Assembly (NCBI GenBank): GCA_000165345.1
Contig: CM000431.1
Span: 640,001 to 704,000, forward strand
Direction: 5' to 3'
DNA: 64,000 bases
The notes beneath the pieces were generated by a model, which saw only the letters and a program-made list of their open reading frames with translations, was not told the origin of the DNA and ran no database searches. This document shows, one piece after another, positions 10,605 through 58,452 of the stretch (within the stretch, counting starts at the first letter, position 1; each line of letters opens with the position of its first letter). Position numbers and translations under genes: made by a program.

Positions 10605-11102
<498 letters not shown>

Positions 11103-11401: not shown

Positions 11402-12231
11402 ATGTTTTTCAATAATCACAAAGAAAAGATATCATCTGAATTGGTAAGTTACTGCCTATCAAATTTGGGTTATTGTAATTTCTGTAGCTTAAGAATATAG
11501 GGAAGGATGGCATTTCTATTGAACTAACAAATATTGAACCATACATTATTAAAGATTTGATGCAATCATTCATTTACACTGAGGGTAAGTCGGACAACTA
11601 GATATAACGAATAAAATAAATTGATGTAGATATTAATACCACCAAACAACGAAATTCCAATTTTCCGAAGTTTCAGTTTAGTTTTTCTAAGGGTGACAAT
11701 TTTAATAGTCAATTATACGGCGGCTGTCCGAGCTGTGGTAATTCGTATGACTTCTTGTTTTTATTAGATGCTTTTGAGAACGAGTACACATCATCGTCTC
11801 ACAATTTGATTGAAAACCATTATTTGAGATGCAAAATATGTAATTACCGATTTTTGAAATTACACAATCATAATTCTTCAGATTCTACAATTAATACTAA
11901 TAGTAATTCTTTTGAGAAGAAGCGCATTTATATAACAGGTATTAGAAAATCGTTATGTTTTGGAACTAACAATAAGTGGTGGGCAAAGTCTATTAGCGTT
12001 GGGAAAAGAATAGAAAAAGAGTCAGATAATAAGTCAGGGAAATCCAATAGTGTTATTAGGGTTCTTGATGCTATGCATAAAAAGAAGGCTCCTAAAATCC
12101 AGGAAATTTGTCCTGAATGCTCACATAACGAGGCATTCTTTACTCAATTCCAGGCTAGATCTGCAGATGAGGGTACTACAGTCATGTATGAATGTTGTAA
12201 ATGCCAGCATCGTAGGGTTATTAATAATTAA
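11402..12231 (+). CDS. RNA polymerase zinc-ribbon subunit of the RPB9/RPA12/RPC11 family (closest to A12.2). Spliced model: join(11402..11443,11500..11584,11630..12231); only the last exon is secure.
   Basis: C-terminal TFIIS-type ribbon CPECSHNEAFFTQFQARSADEGTTVMYECCKCQHR. The N-terminal ribbon CPSC...CKIC lies in frame upstream of the track's TTG start with no in-frame ATG back to a stop at 11617, so an upstream exon is required. GTAAGT at 11585 with acceptor ...GATGTAG at 11629 gives a 45-nt intron; a second GTAAGT at 11444 follows an ATG mini-exon. Confidence 0.6.
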
Positions 12232-12325: not shown

Positions 12326-13435
12326 ATGTCTCTTGACGTTCTTATTAATTCAACTGAGCCTACAAAAGAGGGTCGTTTTTTGTCCGTTTTGGAACAGGAA
12401 TGTATTGATATTAAACTTTTACAAGACTTACTTTGGTCCGGTGTTCCTAGAGGTTCTCCGCCAGAGTTACGAAGAGATGCCTGGCAGATAATGCTGGGAT
12501 ATCTACCACCGAGGAAAGATCGAAAGAATTCGTATAAACTTAAAAAAATCAACGAATATAGATTGCTTTTGAAAGAACATATTGAACATGATAATTATTC
12601 TGAACAAGAAAAGAAGATATTAAGGCAGATTAGGGTAGATCTCCCCAGAACCTCAATTGAATATGAATCCTTAAAAAACCGAATAATTCTTGATTTAATG
12701 GAAAGAGTATTATTCCTTTGGGCAATTAGAAATCCTGCTAGCGGATATGTACAAGGAATTAATGATTTATTACCTCCTTTTCTCGTAGTTTTTCTACTTC
12801 CGTTCTCTCCAGAAGGCGATATTGAACTTCTAGATATCAATAAAATATCTTCTGAAAGGATGTTTGAGATTGAGGTTGAAATATATTGGTGTTTAACGAG
12901 GATGCTTGATACGTTACAAGAAAATTATGTTACAGAACAACCAGGAATACACAAACTTATTGTGCACCTACAAGATATTATAAAAAGGACAAACAAGCCT
13001 TTATTCCAACATTTGAAAGAACAGGGTGTTGATTTTCTGCAATTTTCATTCAGATGGATGAACTGTTTGTTGACCAGAGAATTCCCCACAAAGTGTGTTG
13101 TGAGGCTGTGGGACACATACATTGCAGAAAATACTCTCAATAAAACAAATAAGCCACTAAGATCAAGCTCAATTACATCATTAGATCAGATTCCTACTGG
13201 AAACAATGTAATTTCACATTTTAATGCGTTTCATGTTTATGTTTGCGCAGCATTCCTGTTGCACTGGGAAAAAAAGCTTAGAAATATGGAATTTTCAGAA
13301 ATCATGTTGTTTCTGCAAAATTCTCCTACAAAAAATTGGACAGAAAGAGATATTGACTCACTTCTTGCGCAGGCATTTGTTTTGCAAAGTTTATTCCATT
13401 TTTCTCCGAGACATCTAATTGATTATTCTAATTGA
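12326..13435 (+). CDS. TBC-domain Rab GTPase-activating protein (Gyp1/TBC1D22-like).
   Basis: Arginine-finger motif RQIRVDLPRT and glutamine-finger YVQGINDL, followed by RWMNCLLTREFP. Confidence 0.8.
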   Translation: MSLDVLINSTEPTKEGRFLSVLEQECIDIKLLQDLLWSGVPRGSPPELRRDAWQIMLGYLPPRKDRKNSYKLKKINEYRLLLKEHIEHDNYSEQEKKILRQIRVDLPRTSIEYESLKNRIILDLMERVLFLWAIRNPASGYVQGINDLLPPFLVVFLLPFSPEGDIELLDINKISSERMFEIEVEIYWCLTRMLDTLQENYVTEQPGIHKLIVHLQDIIKRTNKPLFQHLKEQGVDFLQFSFRWMNCLLTREFPTKCVVRLWDTYIAENTLNKTNKPLRSSSITSLDQIPTGNNVISHFNAFHVYVCAAFLLHWEKKLRNMEFSEIMLFLQNSPTKNWTERDIDSLLAQAFVLQSLFHFSPRHLIDYSN

Positions 13436-53775: not shown

Positions 53776-53979
53776 TAAAATTGGAATGTGTTGTAGAGTT
53801 GTAGAATATAACTCAAATAGTTATTTTGAACTGATATTTGATATTAACATTATAATTTTCATGAATTAGTGATTTTTGTTTAGTTTTTTTTCTCTAATGC
53901 AAATGCGCTCGTACAAATAGTTTAATATTCTATTCGTGATATATATTTCTAAAACAAAATAAAATTCTTTAATTTGCAC

Positions 53980-55488
53980 ATGGATTATACTCAAAGAAAT
54001 TTAGAAAAGACGGTTTTAGATAATCACCATATTTGTTTAAATTTAAAGCGAAAAAATAAATTAACTTCGGAAAACAAAGACCATATTTATTATGAATTAC
54101 TTGAAAATAAATATATTAACCCATATTTAGATCAGATTGATTATAGTAAAATTTTTAAACGATTTTTTTCTCAGAAAGATGCGATCGAATATTATGATTC
54201 CATAAACTCTCATTTTGGCCAAATAGAAAACTCAGACGATTCTAGAATATTACCCATTGGAGTTTTCGCTGAAGAAACTACCATAAATGGGAGCAGAAAT
54301 TATATTGTTAGTTCTTATGAATCAATCTGGAACTATATTTCTTCACTATGTAAGTATGAAAGACATGTTTATGAAGTAATACTTGCTAACCAGCCTTGTT
54401 GGCTTTACTTCGATATTGAATATAATAAAAGCCAATATAATTTAGATGATAACCGAATATTGATTGATTTTACAAGTCATCTTAAATTGTGGATTAAATT
54501 GCTATTTGGATACTCAATTGACAAAAAAGATATCATTTACCTCTGTTCAAGTAACGCTGATAAGTTTTCATATCATATCATAATAAAAAGGATCGATATG
54601 GTTCAAAATTTTTCGACATTATTCAAAGATAATATATCGATGAAAATTTTTGTAACCCATTTTATTTCTTTTTTGAATAAAAATAATGTTTTACTTGATG
54701 AATTTGATCACTTTAATCTTCAGAATATAATTGACACAGGAGTCTACACTCGAAATCGGTGTTTTAGAATGCTTTATTCTTCAAAGTTCGGAAAGAAGAG
54801 CATCTTACAAATTGACGAGATGAATACTAGTTTTGTGCTTACAGAGATTTTGCCAATAAAACTATTTCGGTCAATGATTACATTTTTAAATACTCGCACT
54901 TTTTCAAAATCAAACTTTATTTCTAGAATAAATGTAATTAACCAGCTTTGCTTCAACTTAGAGAAGTTCTGTCTTCCAAAAATTTGTGGAATAAACGAAA
55001 TTTCATTTAATGAATACAAAAGTAATGAAAATACAAAATTCATTCCTAGGCATTTAGTAAAGCTAACAGAATACGTAATTTTATTCTGGAACAAGTTATC
55101 TGAAGAGCTTCAAAATAACCCTGAATTGATGCTTAGTAATCTTGAAGAAAGTAAATTAATAGATTACTGTTTGAAAAAAATTAATTTTGATTTTGATGAT
55201 AAAATTTCAATTAGAATTCAAATGTTTATAAGTACCACAATGTATTTTAAAGAAAAAGAATTAATCATTATTTCAGTTTCAAAACTCAATAAGTTATGTT
55301 TCAATATTGAAAGAGAGCATATTTCAAATGGAATAAAATTAATTATTGACTTCTACAATAAGCGGTTTTATCAAAAATGTTTTGATCCTGACTGTATAAA
55401 TTTTAAATCAAGATCATTTACGGTTCCAGAAAGTTTAATTAATTATTCATATGATATACTTGAACTATCTGAGATGATTAAATTTTAA
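53980..55488 (+). CDS. PrimPol (archaeo-eukaryotic primase-polymerase, CCDC111 family).
   Basis: AEP motif I CWLYFDIEYNK (human CKLYFDLEFNK); motif II ADKFSYHIIIK (DEKFSRHLIF); motif III DTGVYTRNRCFRMLYSSKFGKK (DLGVYTRNRNFRLYKSSKIGKR); UL52-type Zn finger ...YQKCFDPDCINFKS (YQKCHDPVCKAKNFKS). The track starts at TTG 53974; first ATG at 53980. Confidence 0.8.
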   Translation: MDYTQRNLEKTVLDNHHICLNLKRKNKLTSENKDHIYYELLENKYINPYLDQIDYSKIFKRFFSQKDAIEYYDSINSHFGQIENSDDSRILPIGVFAEETTINGSRNYIVSSYESIWNYISSLCKYERHVYEVILANQPCWLYFDIEYNKSQYNLDDNRILIDFTSHLKLWIKLLFGYSIDKKDIIYLCSSNADKFSYHIIIKRIDMVQNFSTLFKDNISMKIFVTHFISFLNKNNVLLDEFDHFNLQNIIDTGVYTRNRCFRMLYSSKFGKKSILQIDEMNTSFVLTEILPIKLFRSMITFLNTRTFSKSNFISRINVINQLCFNLEKFCLPKICGINEISFNEYKSNENTKFIPRHLVKLTEYVILFWNKLSEELQNNPELMLSNLEESKLIDYCLKKINFDFDDKISIRIQMFISTTMYFKEKELIIISVSKLNKLCFNIEREHISNGIKLIIDFYNKRFYQKCFDPDCINFKSRSFTVPESLINYSYDILELSEMIKF

Positions 55489-55521: not shown

Positions 55522-58452
55522 ATGGAGTTTTCAACTGAAGATTCCTCTCTCATTTGTGAAAATTGCAGAGGAGACCGAGTATATATTGATACAAATACTG
55601 GTGAATATTTTTGTGAGGATTGTGGGATCCAGCAACAGGAAATTAGAGAACTAGAAAGAGATATTGACGATGTGTACTTTGAAATATCAAACGGGCCAGA
55701 TGGTAGAAGAAGCAATGTTAGGCGTGCGAGCCAGTCAACTGAAAAGCTATCAAATAAAGAAAATAATATTGAAAGCTTAAAAGATGATGATACATTATAT
55801 GACCAGACCCTGAACAATATTTCTAACAAGAAGCAAACATATTTTGATAAATGGTTCAATAAAAAACCAAAAATAGTTAAAAATTCTGACTTCTTAATTG
55901 GAGTACAGCTAATTGTTCAAAACATTATTAAAGATATGATCGAAAGACGTCAAATAAAAAACGATGTTCTAAAAACTTCAAAAAGTATTTGGTTTTCATT
56001 TTTGGAATATTTATGCAAAAACAGAATTTCAATTAGAGCATTTTTTGCAGATCTAAGATGTTCTGTACTCAAGGTACCATTTAATGAAACAGCTTCTAAT
56101 TCAAATATAAATAATATTCAGACTAAAAATCTCAAAATTCCCAATATTGAAAGAAAAGTTTATGAAAATGAAAATACTATATTATATGATTTGCTACATA
56201 ATTTATTTGGATTAGATAGGGTTGAATACTTATCAAAAATTTGCGATGGAATAATCAGATACTGTAATTCAACTAATGCACGTAAAAGAATGAGCAACAA
56301 TGCTAGAACAGATGAAAGTTCTGGTGGAAATGTGTTGGAGGAATGGGAAATCTCTGCAAGAAAACTTCAACAATTAGCAAATGTAAGAAATATTCCATAT
56401 TCAAATTGGTATGGAGAATCAAATATTCCTAGGTCAGAATTAATTAAATCTGTTATTGACATGATTTATGAGTATGACTTTCTAGAAAGTTATTTCAGTA
56501 GAATAAGCAAAAGCATATCTGATGAAAATGGACATATTAATCAGTCTAGATTTAATGAATGGATCAACTTCCATGTCATTTTTTTAATGAACAACAGAAA
56601 AATAAATCAAGATTATATTTCAATTTCAAACTATTTAGAATTACCTACAAATGAGTTTCAGAATCGTAGAGACTTAGAGTTTCAGCTCTACAAAGTACGT
56701 ATTATACATTTACTGTTATATAAAATATTGGGTAAATGCTTAATTAGAGTATTTCATAATTCATCGCTCTCTGATTATTCTCCAATATTTGAGTTTATTG
56801 GAAACATTGAATCCCAAAATCTTAGAAAAAGAAGTTTGCCTAAAGATTGTTTTAAAAATTTATCTTTGGAATGCCCAAAAATAGACTATAGTTTTATATT
56901 GTGTATTATTTGGATTTCATTGTTGAAGAGTGGTTATCAAGTTACATCTTTTGACATTATTGAATGGGTAAAAGTTGGAAAAATAGATATATTTAAATCT
57001 GAAAACGCAATTCCAAAATGGCTTAAAGATGCAGGCTTCAAATGGGATAACGATATTAATTCTATTACTCAAACTAGATCAATTACGCAAGTTTCGAAAA
57101 TTCCAAGTCCTGCAGATCTTGAAAGAGTGATCAATTTTTTTTCAATGTCAATTAATTTGGTTATTCCGCCTTTTAATGTTCCAATCATGATTCACAGAAT
57201 TTTGTCAAACTGTAATTTGTTTGGAAATAGAGGAGGAATTTCAATACAGCCTCTTTGTATCCGTCTTTGGGAATTTTTATTCAAAGAAGGCAATATTATC
57301 AAATTTTTTAGTAAACTGACAATTGTACCATCCATCATAATTGTTATTGCAAGATCAATTTGGCCAATTTTCGTATATCATCCTATACCTAATCCAAAAT
57401 ATATATTAGAAAACTTACATTTCCATAATGAATTATCAAAATCTAATGTATCTGCTACTATAGAATCGCTTAATCTTGACTTTGGGTTTGATGTAAAACT
57501 ATCATCTTGGATCTTAAAAACTAGAGAAAATCAATCTTTGTTGGAAGAAAAAATCCGTTTCTATTCAATCCTCAATGGCATTGAATGGAGTGGGATTTTT
57601 GCAATTAATTGGCTTTATAATTACCTATCAAATATGTCTGCGCCATCCATAAATGTAAATGATATATTTAGAAACTCCGATACAAAGAGTCCAGAATTTA
57701 TTATTGAAAAAAAAGGAAGGCCAACAATAAATTTAAGAGGTGATTTCTTTAACTCTATAAGAAAAAAAAGGCAAGGTATAAAAAAAAAGATTGGGAAAAG
57801 CAATTGGTCAGGAATTACGCCTTCAGAACCAAAAAATTGTGAATTCTATTCGTTTGACAAAAAAAAAATTAGTATATTTTCTAGATACTTACCTTCTAAT
57901 AGAGAAATATTCCACTCTATGTTGTTTAAATATGTGAACAAGGTGAATATATTTTTTGATCATGATATTTTACAATCATGGGATTTATTTGATGACGACG
58001 AAAAGGTTCAACTTGTTAGTAATTGGGGAAAAATCTTATTAACGAGTAAAGAAACTGAGAACTCTAGCATTCTTAAGGGTATCATTGAATACAACTTTCC
58101 TTCGGTTGTATGTTCGTTATTCCCAGTATTAATAAACAATAATTTCTTGAAGAACGAAGGTAGCTGTTTCAACAGCATTGAATCTATTATCAATCATATC
58201 TTCAATTTGAAACTTGATTTCTTAAAAAAATTATTCCAAGAACCCGGGATTTTTACTTTTATTGTTCCGCCTTTGCCTCAGTTTATTCACTCCAGACAAA
58301 TGCACACTAATTCTGAGGCATCTTTACCAACGCCTTATTCTATTTTGTTGTTGCAATTAGCTAAAATAACTGGAGAAAACTATTTAAATATTCACAATTG
58401 TGCTATTAAAATTGAAGAAATATTACGAGAAAGGCTTGTAAAAGGAAGGTAA
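55522..58452 (+). CDS. N-terminal zinc-ribbon protein, about 977 aa, possibly a TFIIB-related factor (Rrn7/TAF1B-like RNA polymerase I core factor).
   Basis: CENCRGDRVYIDTNTGEYFCEDCG (C-x2-C-x15-C-x2-C) at the N-terminus, followed by IKNDVLKTSKSIWFSFLEY reminiscent of TAF1B LKNDVLHNFWKRYLQ; the rest is unassigned. The track starts at TTG 55492; first ATG at 55522. Confidence 0.35.
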   Translation: MEFSTEDSSLICENCRGDRVYIDTNTGEYFCEDCGIQQQEIRELERDIDDVYFEISNGPDGRRSNVRRASQSTEKLSNKENNIESLKDDDTLYDQTLNNISNKKQTYFDKWFNKKPKIVKNSDFLIGVQLIVQNIIKDMIERRQIKNDVLKTSKSIWFSFLEYLCKNRISIRAFFADLRCSVLKVPFNETASNSNINNIQTKNLKIPNIERKVYENENTILYDLLHNLFGLDRVEYLSKICDGIIRYCNSTNARKRMSNNARTDESSGGNVLEEWEISARKLQQLANVRNIPYSNWYGESNIPRSELIKSVIDMIYEYDFLESYFSRISKSISDENGHINQSRFNEWINFHVIFLMNNRKINQDYISISNYLELPTNEFQNRRDLEFQLYKVRIIHLLLYKILGKCLIRVFHNSSLSDYSPIFEFIGNIESQNLRKRSLPKDCFKNLSLECPKIDYSFILCIIWISLLKSGYQVTSFDIIEWVKVGKIDIFKSENAIPKWLKDAGFKWDNDINSITQTRSITQVSKIPSPADLERVINFFSMSINLVIPPFNVPIMIHRILSNCNLFGNRGGISIQPLCIRLWEFLFKEGNIIKFFSKLTIVPSIIIVIARSIWPIFVYHPIPNPKYILENLHFHNELSKSNVSATIESLNLDFGFDVKLSSWILKTRENQSLLEEKIRFYSILNGIEWSGIFAINWLYNYLSNMSAPSINVNDIFRNSDTKSPEFIIEKKGRPTINLRGDFFNSIRKKRQGIKKKIGKSNWSGITPSEPKNCEFYSFDKKKISIFSRYLPSNREIFHSMLFKYVNKVNIFFDHDILQSWDLFDDDEKVQLVSNWGKILLTSKETENSSILKGIIEYNFPSVVCSLFPVLINNNFLKNEGSCFNSIESIINHIFNLKLDFLKKLFQEPGIFTFIVPPLPQFIHSRQMHTNSEASLPTPYSILLLQLAKITGENYLNIHNCAIKIEEILRERLVKGR

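What the first reader, a model, noticed from the sequence alone, without database searches (positions are those of the whole stretch)
11402..12231. RPA12/RPC11-type zinc-ribbon polymerase subunit needs upstream exons: its N-terminal CxxC sits upstream of any possible start
The listed ORF starts at a TTG. The open frame extends upstream to 11620 and contains the first zinc-ribbon Cys pair (CPSC), but has no ATG. A GTAAGT at 11585 and an acceptor at 11629 (a 45-nt intron, the modal size here) join it to an upstream exon with an in-frame ATG (11506 or 11560). A further ATG mini-exon at 11402-11443 followed by GTAAGT may be exon 1. The C-terminal ribbon (RSADEGTTVMYEC) is closest to Pol I A12.2. 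A TAF1B/Rrn7-like candidate, which would be a Pol I factor, is also in the window at 55522.
Basis: partly seen in the sequence, partly recalled or inferred. Interest (0 to 1): 0.5.

Follow-up and report, generated by a model that had tools for sequence, protein, structure and literature searches.

The report
Cryptosporidium Pol I subunit RPA12 gene

Summary
The window is Cryptosporidium parvum chromosome 3. The TTG "ORF" (11755-12231) is the tail of an open frame that starts at 11620. That frame has no ATG before the first zinc-ribbon Cys pair (CPSC).

Joining exon 1 (11402-11443), exon 2 (11488-11584) and exon 3 (11630-12231) across two GTAAGT...TAG introns of 44 and 45 nt gives a 246-aa protein. 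It is 100% identical over its full length to the public C. parvum protein CPHLJ_3g2550 (cgd3_2550).

Both introns sit at the same position and phase in eight Cryptosporidium species. All three exons show an excess of synonymous changes. This also refutes the 200-aa public models, which splice out the CPSC pair, and a C. ubiquitum model that lacks exon 1.

The protein is RPA12-type rather than RPC11-type or RPB9-type. It has RSADEG, a tail ending in NN, and its best sequence, profile and fold matches are to Pol I A12.2.

It belongs to an apicomplexan long form of RPA12 with an N-terminal extension, which a 2025 review already describes. Nothing here is new beyond small annotation corrections.

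Side note: the Rrn7/TAF1B-like ORF at 55522 has partial Pfam support, although two papers report no such factor in these parasites.

The parts
11402..11443 (+). Exon 1: ATG plus 13 codons (MFFNNHKEKISSEL), ending in phase 0
   Evidence: The spliced model equals P0001 exactly. An ATG-initiated exon of 42-45 nt followed by a GT donor is present in all 8 species. It is also present in C. ubiquitum, whose public model omits it. Changes against C. ubiquitum are 7 synonymous and 3 non-synonymous, P = 3e-4.
11444..11487 (+). Intron 1, 44 nt, GTAAGT...TGTAG
   Evidence: The orthologous introns are 44-59 nt, sit at the same position and diverge much faster than the exons (55-68% identity outside C. hominis). 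If unspliced, translation stops after 32 aa.
11488..11584 (+). Exon 2, 97 nt (residues 15-46 plus the first base of codon 47), ending in phase 1
   Evidence: Exactly 97 nt in all 8 species. Changes against C. ubiquitum are 12 synonymous and 2 non-synonymous, P = 2e-7. It contains the in-frame ATG 11560 (M39), which is not conserved in C. andersoni.
11585..11629 (+). Intron 2, 45 nt, GTAAGT...TGTAG
   Evidence: The orthologous introns are 44-82 nt with the same position and phase. If retained, translation stops after 51 aa.
11630..12231 (+). Exon 3 (residues 47-246 plus the TAA stop)
   Evidence: It contains both zinc ribbons.
11630..11767 (+). Segment encoding residues 47-92, including the CPSC pair. 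The 200-aa public models P0004 and P0005 remove it as part of a 183-nt intron (11585-11767).
   Evidence: maps the alternative acceptor TTTATTAG at 11760-11767. Changes are 19 synonymous / 3 non-synonymous against C. ubiquitum (P = 1e-11) and 10 / 3 against chipmunk genotype I. The AG of that acceptor is absent in C. felis, C. ryanae and C. andersoni. The segment is therefore coding.
11725..11841 (+). N-terminal zinc ribbon, C79-x2-C82 ... C114-x2-C117, with a 31-residue loop
   Evidence: All four Cys are invariant in 23 apicomplexan long-form sequences. hhalign aligns it in register with the N-ribbon of canonical RPA12 (probability 87-92%) and of RPC11 (84-89%). Pfam PF02150 does not detect it.
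12109..12213 (+). C-terminal TFIIS-type zinc ribbon (residues 207-241: C207, C210, C235, C238)
   Evidence: Pfam PF01096 scores 52.1 bits against a cut-off of 21. pLDDT is above 90 in the AF2 model.
12157..12174 (+). Acidic hairpin RSADEG (residues 223-228)
   Evidence: Invariant in all 23 long-form sequences. The Gly after DE matches S. pombe and S. cerevisiae RPA12; human RPC10 has Pro there.

Best explanation
The locus is the C. parvum gene cgd3_2550 for RPA12 (A12.2 / POLR1H), the RNA polymerase I subunit with a TFIIS-like domain. It is transcribed from the promoter region it shares with the divergent histone H3 gene. Two short introns (44 and 45 nt) are spliced out, and translation starts at ATG 11402 to give a 246-aa protein.

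By homology, the N-terminal zinc ribbon (C79/C82/C114/C117) would anchor the protein on the Pol I lobe. The C-terminal TFIIS-type ribbon would insert its acidic hairpin (D226-E227) into the pore to stimulate cleavage of backtracked rRNA.

Compared with the 120-130-aa canonical subunit, it carries a 78-residue N-terminal extension, a longer ribbon loop and a longer linker. These are features of an apicomplexan-wide long form of RPA12.

Shown here: the exon structure, the coding status of every exon, both ribbons, and the RPA12-type signature. Inferred: association with Pol I, cleavage activity, and any role of the extension.
For: - Exact identity of the spliced product with annotated P0001.
- Conserved synteny, histone H3(-) | this gene(+) | RabGAP-TBC(+), and conserved intron positions and phases in 8 species.
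- Synonymous excess in exon 1, exon 2 and residues 47-92.
- PF01096 at 52 bits.
- Best PDB sequence hits are S. pombe RPA12 (50.1 bits) and S. cerevisiae RPA12 (43.0), ahead of human RPC10 (42.5). The RPA12 alignments run to the very C-terminus...NN.
- hhalign scores 166 against the RPA12-type alignment and 142 against the RPC11-type alignment.
- The N-ribbon aligns in register.
- The six best Foldseek hits are Pol I chain I, the chain labelled RPA12.
- Full-length relatives in Neospora, Babesia, Theileria and gregarines, several of them named RPA12 by UniRef.
- PMC9705513 lists cgd3_2550 (246 aa) as an A12.2 candidate. PMC12235521 lists the C. hominis ortholog as RPA12 and describes the apicomplexan N-terminal extension.
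Against: - No transcript or peptide data were available here, so splice junctions and start codon rest on comparative evidence.
- The margin of RPA12 over RPC11 is modest in every score and rests on a domain of about 50 residues.
- Pfam's N-ribbon model (PF02150) does not detect the N-ribbon.
- Two public annotations give a different, 200-aa product.
- Exon 1 is poorly conserved between distant species, with dN/dS near 1 against C. felis, C. bovis and C. andersoni.
- PMC9705513 lists a second A12.2 candidate, cgd7_503 (106 aa). I could not examine it.
Confidence: 0.9

Rival explanations
1. The 200-aa product found in some public annotations (CPCDC_3g2550, CHM_3g2550) is the real or main product. 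A 183-nt intron (11585-11767) removes residues 47-92, so the first CxxC is not translated and the N-ribbon is incomplete.
For: Two deposited gene models use this splice. The acceptor TTTATTAG follows a T-rich run and the splice keeps the reading frame.
Against: The removed segment is under strong purifying selection: 19 synonymous / 3 non-synonymous changes, P = 1e-11. It holds C79 and C82, invariant in 23 apicomplexan sequences, and the conserved PKFxY and DxF motifs. The AG of this acceptor is absent in C. felis, C. ryanae and C. andersoni. A minor alternative isoform cannot be excluded.
Confidence: 0.05
2. Exon 1 is an untranslated leader and translation starts at ATG 11560 (M39). This would give a 208-aa protein.
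For: ATG 11560 is in frame. Exon 1 is weakly conserved between distant species. The public C. ubiquitum model omits exon 1.
Against: Codons 15-38, upstream of M39, are conserved (ELTNIEPYIIKDL) within an exon that has 12 synonymous and 2 non-synonymous changes. M39 is not conserved in C. andersoni. In all 8 species exon 1 starts with ATG, is 42-45 nt long and ends in phase 0. Exon 1 shows a synonymous excess among close species, P = 3e-4. ATG 11402 is the first ATG of the spliced mRNA that is not followed at once by a stop; ATG 11355 is followed directly by TAA.
Confidence: 0.05
3. The protein is the Pol III subunit RPC11 (RPC10), or a polymerase-independent TFIIS-ribbon protein, and not the Pol I subunit.
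For: The C-ribbon scores nearly as well against human RPC10 (42.5 bits) as against yeast RPA12 (43-50 bits). The N-ribbon aligns about equally well with both classes. PMC9705513 lists two A12.2 candidates in C. parvum.
Against: The protein has RSADEG, not RSADEP, and a tail ending ...NN rather than ...W(K/R)E. hhalign scores 166 against 142. The top Foldseek hits are Pol I chain I. The other candidate, cgd7_503, is 106 aa, close to the 108-110-aa RPC10 chains in the PDB hits. OrthoMCL-based assignment places the ortholog with RPA12.
Confidence: 0.04

Closest known systems
Apicomplexan long-form RPA12 (for example C. hominis ChTU502y2012_401g0395, P. falciparum PF3D7_0407300, T. gondii TGME49_250060), as described in PMC12235521
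   Same: Same architecture: a variable N-terminal extension, a divergent C4 N-ribbon that falls below Pfam significance, a long linker and a highly conserved TFIIS-type C-ribbon with QARSADEG. Profile matches cover nearly the full length for Neospora, Babesia, Theileria and gregarine proteins. The window gene is the C. parvum ortholog.
   Different: Nothing essential. Cryptosporidium has one of the shorter versions (246 aa, against 370 aa quoted in the text of PMC12235521 for P. falciparum), and it carries two short introns.
Canonical RPA12 / A12.2 / POLR1H of yeast and human (PDB 4c2m_I, 7aoc_I, 7ob9_I)
   Same: Two zinc ribbons. C-terminal TFIIS-like ribbon with the RSADEG hairpin and a tail ending NN. 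These are the best sequence, profile and fold matches.
   Different: The canonical proteins are 119-126 aa, with the first Cys about 10 residues from the N-terminus in the canonical alignment built here (P0149). This protein has 78 residues before the first Cys, a 31-residue ribbon loop and a linker of about 89 residues with its own conserved motifs (SD..., IYxxGxR, KWW). PF02150 is not detected.
RPC11/RPC10 (Pol III), RPB9 (Pol II), TFIIS domain III, archaeal TFS
   Same: The same two-ribbon family (TFIIS shares only the C-ribbon). The acidic hairpin RSADE is shared with RPC11 and, from established knowledge, with TFIIS.
   Different: RPC11 has RSADEP and a ...W(K/R)(E/D) tail. RPB9 and TFIIS score much lower.

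Membership tests
RPA12 / A12.2 / POLR1H | C-terminal TFIIS-type C4 zinc ribbon (Pfam PF01096) | tested here: met
   52.1 bits against a cut-off of 21, residues 207-241. C207, C210, C235 and C238 are invariant.
RPA12 / A12.2 / POLR1H | Acidic hairpin Q-x-R-S-A-D-E with the catalytic Asp-Glu pair | tested here: met
   Q221 through G228 (QARSADEG) are invariant in 23 long-form sequences.
RPA12 / A12.2 / POLR1H | RPA12-type signature: Gly after DE, and a C-terminus 18 residues after the motif ending in N-N/S/T. RPC11 instead has Pro and a W-K/R-E tail. | tested here: met
   The protein reads RSADEGTTVMYECCKCQHRRVINN. PDB alignments show the same pattern in S. pombe and S. cerevisiae RPA12, and RSADEP in human RPC10.
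RPA12 / A12.2 / POLR1H | N-terminal Rpb9-type C4 zinc ribbon | tested here: met
   C79, C82, C114 and C117 are invariant. hhalign gives an in-register alignment to the canonical N-ribbon, probability 87-92%. Foldseek alignments of 138-169 columns to yeast A12.2 (111-124 residues long) are long enough to extend beyond the roughly 50-residue C-ribbon. Caveat: Pfam PF02150 gives no hit at E <= 1, and the ribbon loop is about 15 residues longer than in the canonical alignment.
RPA12 / A12.2 / POLR1H | Closer to RPA12 than to the paralogs RPC11 and RPB9 | tested here: met
   PDB profile scores: 50.1 and 43.0 bits (RPA12), 42.5 (RPC10), 28 or less (RPB9). hhalign: 166 against 142. The six best Foldseek hits are Pol I chain I. 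The margin is modest.
RPA12 / A12.2 / POLR1H | Subunit of purified Pol I; stimulates RNA cleavage | not testable with these tools
   Needs biochemistry.
Apicomplexan long-form RPA12 | Homology over nearly the full length, including the N-terminal extension and linker motifs, to RPA12 of other apicomplexans | tested here: met
   Profile positions about 11-248 match proteins of 190-410 aa from Siedleckia, Lankesteria and Rhytidocystis, with shorter matches to Neospora (positions 66-248), Babesia and Theileria. E-values run from 1e-37 to 1e-13.
RPC11 / RPC10 (Pol III) | RSADEP hairpin and a ...W(K/R)(E/D) C-terminal tail; length about 105-113 aa | tested here: not met
   The protein has Gly, not Pro, an ...INN tail and 246 aa.
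Rrn7 / TAF1B (side ORF 55522-58452 only) | N-terminal TFIIB-type zinc ribbon plus Rrn7-type cyclin domains (PF11781, PF20644, PF20645) | tested here: inconclusive
   The C. parvum copy is below cut-off: Zn_Ribbon_TF 23.3 bits (cut-off 29) and Rrn7_cyclin_N 16.1 bits (cut-off 24.1). Five orthologs pass the cut-off for Rrn7_cyclin_N at 25.2-35.5 bits, mostly over the last 50 or so positions of the model. No C-terminal cyclin hit was found. The PDB sequence search found no Rrn7 or TAF1B. No relatives outside Cryptosporidium were found.

The most novel reading that the evidence does not exclude
The roughly 120 extra residues of this protein, compared with canonical RPA12, may be a built-in substitute for the A49/A34.5 heterodimer. 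They comprise the helical N-terminal extension, the PKFxY and DxF(D/N) motifs before the ribbon, the enlarged ribbon loop and the SD.../IYxxGxR/KWW linker motifs, all conserved across Apicomplexa. Two papers could not find A49 or A34.5 in these parasites. PMC12235521 has already proposed this idea speculatively.

A second, less likely reading is that the in-frame alternative acceptor at 11767 is used to make a regulated isoform without the N-ribbon.
Probability: 0.2. Interest if true: 0.45.

Novelty: already known. Interest (0 to 1): 0.15.

Why it matters
It matters little beyond annotation quality. The gene, its 246-aa product and its assignment to RPA12 are already in public databases and in two papers.

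The practical value of this check is that it settles, on comparative grounds, which of three conflicting public gene models is right:
- The 246-aa model is correct.
- The 200-aa models delete half of the N-terminal zinc ribbon.
- The C. ubiquitum model lacks exon 1.

The check also lists the motifs that define the apicomplexan long form of RPA12. These could guide mutagenesis if the idea that the extension replaces A49/A34.5 is ever tested.

The more interesting lead is peripheral. The window also holds a TFIIB-ribbon protein whose orthologs pass Pfam's Rrn7/TAF1B cyclin model, whereas the literature reports no SL1 or core-factor subunit in these parasites.

Tried and rejected
- AlphaFold2 on the 8-sequence Cryptosporidium alignment gave pLDDT 35 and was discarded. 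With 23 apicomplexan sequences the mean rose to 63.7. The C-ribbon was above 90, the N-ribbon about 64-83 and the extension 40-70. I used this model only for a Foldseek ranking. I did not interpret the extension's fold.
- A possible third intron seen by eye (GTATTA at 11939 ... CTAAC ... AAG at 11976, 38 nt) was rejected. It would shift the frame, and it overlaps codons 150-162, which include the invariant G150, R152 and F157.
- The 183-nt intron of the 200-aa models was rejected as the main splice.
- Whole-length hhalign of the long forms against canonical RPA12 aligned only the C-ribbon. The N-ribbon had to be tested on trimmed alignments.
- I could not retrieve the other C. parvum paralogs (cgd7_503, RPB9) for an argument by elimination, because the tools could not reach them.
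- For the Rrn7-like ORF, the PDB profile search found nothing relevant. The profile search of the protein collection found only Cryptosporidium proteins.

Full report
**What is in the sequence**

The window has about 30% G+C. Its proteins are identical or nearly identical to Cryptosporidium parvum proteins.

The mechanically listed ORF 11755-12231 starts at TTG. Its frame stays open upstream to 11620, just after a TAA at 11617-11619. It has no in-frame ATG from 11620 to at least 11900. It encodes ...LYGGCPSCGNSYDF...LRCKICNY... upstream of the TTG.

Between 11301 and 12300 on the + strand, GTAAGT occurs only at 11444 and 11585. The ATG given as 11506 is at 11507-11509 and is out of frame with the exon it would have to start. 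ATG 11560 is in frame.

**Gene model**

I joined 11402-11443, 11488-11584 and 11630-12231. This removes introns of 44 nt (GTAAGT...TGTAG) and 45 nt (GTAAGT...TGTAG) and gives a 246-aa protein.

A search of the protein collection returned P0001, 'hypothetical protein CPHLJ_3g2550 [Cryptosporidium parvum]', at 100% identity and 100% coverage. UniRef names it a DNA-directed RNA polymerase I protein. An exhaustive search for GT..AG structures that reproduce P0001 from the window found exactly these introns.

PMC9705513 lists cgd3_2550 at 246 aa as a candidate A12.2/POLR1H ortholog.

**Comparative test of the model**

I fetched the orthologous loci of C. hominis, chipmunk genotype I, C. ubiquitum, C. 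canis, C. felis, C. bovis, C. ryanae and C. andersoni.

- Synteny is kept: histone H3 on the minus strand, then this gene, then a RabGAP-TBC gene.
- In the seven other species whose models I reconstructed, as in C. parvum, exon 1 is 42-45 nt and starts with ATG. Exon 2 is exactly 97 nt.
- The two introns sit at the same positions and phases. Their lengths are 44-59 and 44-82 nt and are mostly not multiples of three.
- Outside C. hominis, intron identity to C. parvum is 43-80%. The flanking exons are conserved at the protein level.

Against C. ubiquitum the counts of synonymous / non-synonymous changes are:

| Region | Synonymous / non-synonymous | P under neutrality |
|---|---|---|
| Exon 1 | 7 / 3 | 3e-4 |
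| Exon 2 | 12 / 2 | 2e-7 |
| Residues 47-92 | 19 / 3 | 1e-11 |

Without splicing, translation stops after 32 aa. With intron 2 retained, it stops after 51 aa.

The start must be ATG 11402. The part of exon 2 upstream of M39 is conserved, exon 2 has no earlier in-frame ATG, and M39 is not conserved in C. andersoni.

**Conflicting public models**

Two deposited proteins of 200 aa (P0004, Cryptosporidium sp. 43IA8; P0005, C. hominis CHM_3g2550) use the same donor at 11585. Their acceptor is at 11767, giving a 183-nt in-frame intron. This deletes residues 47-92 and with them the CPSC pair.

The selection data above show that this segment is coding. It holds C79 and C82, invariant across Apicomplexa. 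The AG of that acceptor is missing in C. felis, C. ryanae and C. andersoni. I regard the 200-aa models as mis-annotations. A minor isoform cannot be excluded without RNA data.

The C. ubiquitum model (P0003, 236 aa) starts at an ATG inside the 3' end of intron 1. The true exon 1 (ATG...GAACTG|GTAAGT) lies just upstream, at L004 1916-1960.

**What the protein is**

Pfam finds only the TFIIS-type ribbon: PF01096, 52 bits, residues 207-241.

Evidence on which paralog it is:

- Against PDB sequences, the genus profile scores best with S. pombe RPA12 (50.1 bits) and S. cerevisiae RPA12 (43.0). Human RPC10 follows at 42.5 and RPB9 at 28 or less. The RPA12 alignments run to the last residue...NN.
- The hairpin reads RSADEG, as in both yeast RPA12 proteins. 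Human RPC10 has RSADEP.
Of these, 117 have RSADEG, nearly all with a tail 18 residues long ending in N-N/S/T. Thirteen have RSADEP.
- Profile-profile comparison gives 166 against an RPA12-type alignment and 142 against an RPC11-type alignment.
- An AlphaFold2 model built with 23 apicomplexan sequences has a mean pLDDT of 63.7, with the C-ribbon above 90. Its six best Foldseek hits in the PDB are Pol I chain I, the chain labelled RPA12. Several of these alignments span 138-169 columns.
- Pfam PF02150 misses the N-terminal ribbon. Even so, it aligns in register with the canonical N-ribbon at 87-92% probability, and its loop is about 15 residues longer. Its four Cys are invariant.

**Place among known proteins**

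The same profile search found proteins of 190-410 aa that match profile positions from about 11 up to 248. They come from gregarines (Siedleckia, Lankesteria, Selenidium, Trichotokara), Rhytidocystis, Neospora, Babesia and Theileria. UniRef names several of them RPA12.

Their alignment shares these features:
- a helical N-terminal region;
- PKFxY and DxF(D/N)xx...GCxxCG;
- LxCxxCGH...PLH...ESDxxVD, which reads KLH...SDS in Cryptosporidium;
- IYxxGxRxxxxF...KxWW;
- the invariant QARSADEG ribbon.

A 2025 review (PMC12235521) already reports that apicomplexan RPA12 is enlarged by an N-terminal extension. It notes that the second C4 finger falls below significance. It lists the C. hominis ortholog (244 aa) on its RPA12 sheet. 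It also speculates that the extension compensates for the missing RPA49/RPA34 heterodimer. The architecture is therefore known too.

**Mechanism**

This follows from homology; none of it was tested here. The N-ribbon would anchor the subunit on the Pol I lobe. The C-ribbon would reach the active site through the pore and, with D226/E227, stimulate cleavage of backtracked RNA. What the extension does is unknown, and my model of it is too uncertain to interpret.

**Side observation**

The ORF at 55522-58452 (976 aa) begins with a CxxC...CxxC ribbon.

- The C. parvum copy is below Pfam cut-offs: Zn_Ribbon_TF 23.3 bits and Rrn7_cyclin_N 16.1 bits.
- All eight Cryptosporidium orthologs match Rrn7_cyclin_N at E <= 0.1. 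Five pass the cut-off at 25-35.5 bits.
- UniRef names the C. muris protein an Rrn7/TAF1B N-terminal cyclin domain protein.
- Both papers read here state that no TAF1B or Rrn7 was found in these parasites.
- A PDB profile search and a further protein search added nothing.

**Verdict**

The gene model, the product and the RPA12 assignment are already public. The only new results are the rejection, on comparative grounds, of two alternative public gene models, and a list of conserved motifs. Interest is low.

Noticed in passing
window 55522-58452 (+): A 976-aa ORF with an N-terminal TFIIB-type zinc ribbon. The C. parvum copy is below Pfam cut-offs, but five Cryptosporidium orthologs pass the cut-off for Rrn7/TAF1B N-terminal cyclin (PF20644, 25-35.5 bits). 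Two papers report no TAF1B or Rrn7 in Cryptosporidium or apicomplexans. It may be the missing Pol I core-factor subunit.
   Followed up: partly
window 11585-11767; L005 2184-2366: Public 200-aa models (CPCDC_3g2550, CHM_3g2550) use a 183-nt intron that deletes the first Cys pair of the N-ribbon. Comparative data indicate that this is a mis-annotation.
   Followed up: yes
L004 1916-2006 (C. ubiquitum): The public model cubi_01065 (236 aa) starts at an ATG inside the 3' end of intron 1. The conserved exon 1 (MFSNIHKKKKISSEL) and its GTAAGT donor lie just upstream.
   Followed up: yes
window 10605-11012 (-): A histone H3 gene ([10 protein letters not shown]...), divergently oriented and about 390 bp from the RPA12 start codon. 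The arrangement is conserved in every Cryptosporidium locus fetched.
   Followed up: partly
window 12326-13435 (+): A 369-aa ORF immediately downstream. Its orthologs carry RabGAP-TBC domains. The gap after the RPA12 stop codon is only 94 nt.
   Followed up: no
window 53974-55488 (+): A 504-aa ORF directly upstream of the Rrn7-like ORF. The C. felis public model (P0172, 1452 aa) carries Pfam PF03121 (Herpesviridae UL52/UL70 primase) and is about as long as this ORF and the Rrn7-like gene together (504 + 976 aa). This suggests a fused model and a PrimPol-like protein here. I did not confirm the fusion by alignment.
   Followed up: no
L001 951-1340 (C. andersoni): C. andersoni has an extra called gene (107 aa, no Pfam hit) between histone H3 and RPA12. 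No such gene is called in the other loci fetched.
   Followed up: no
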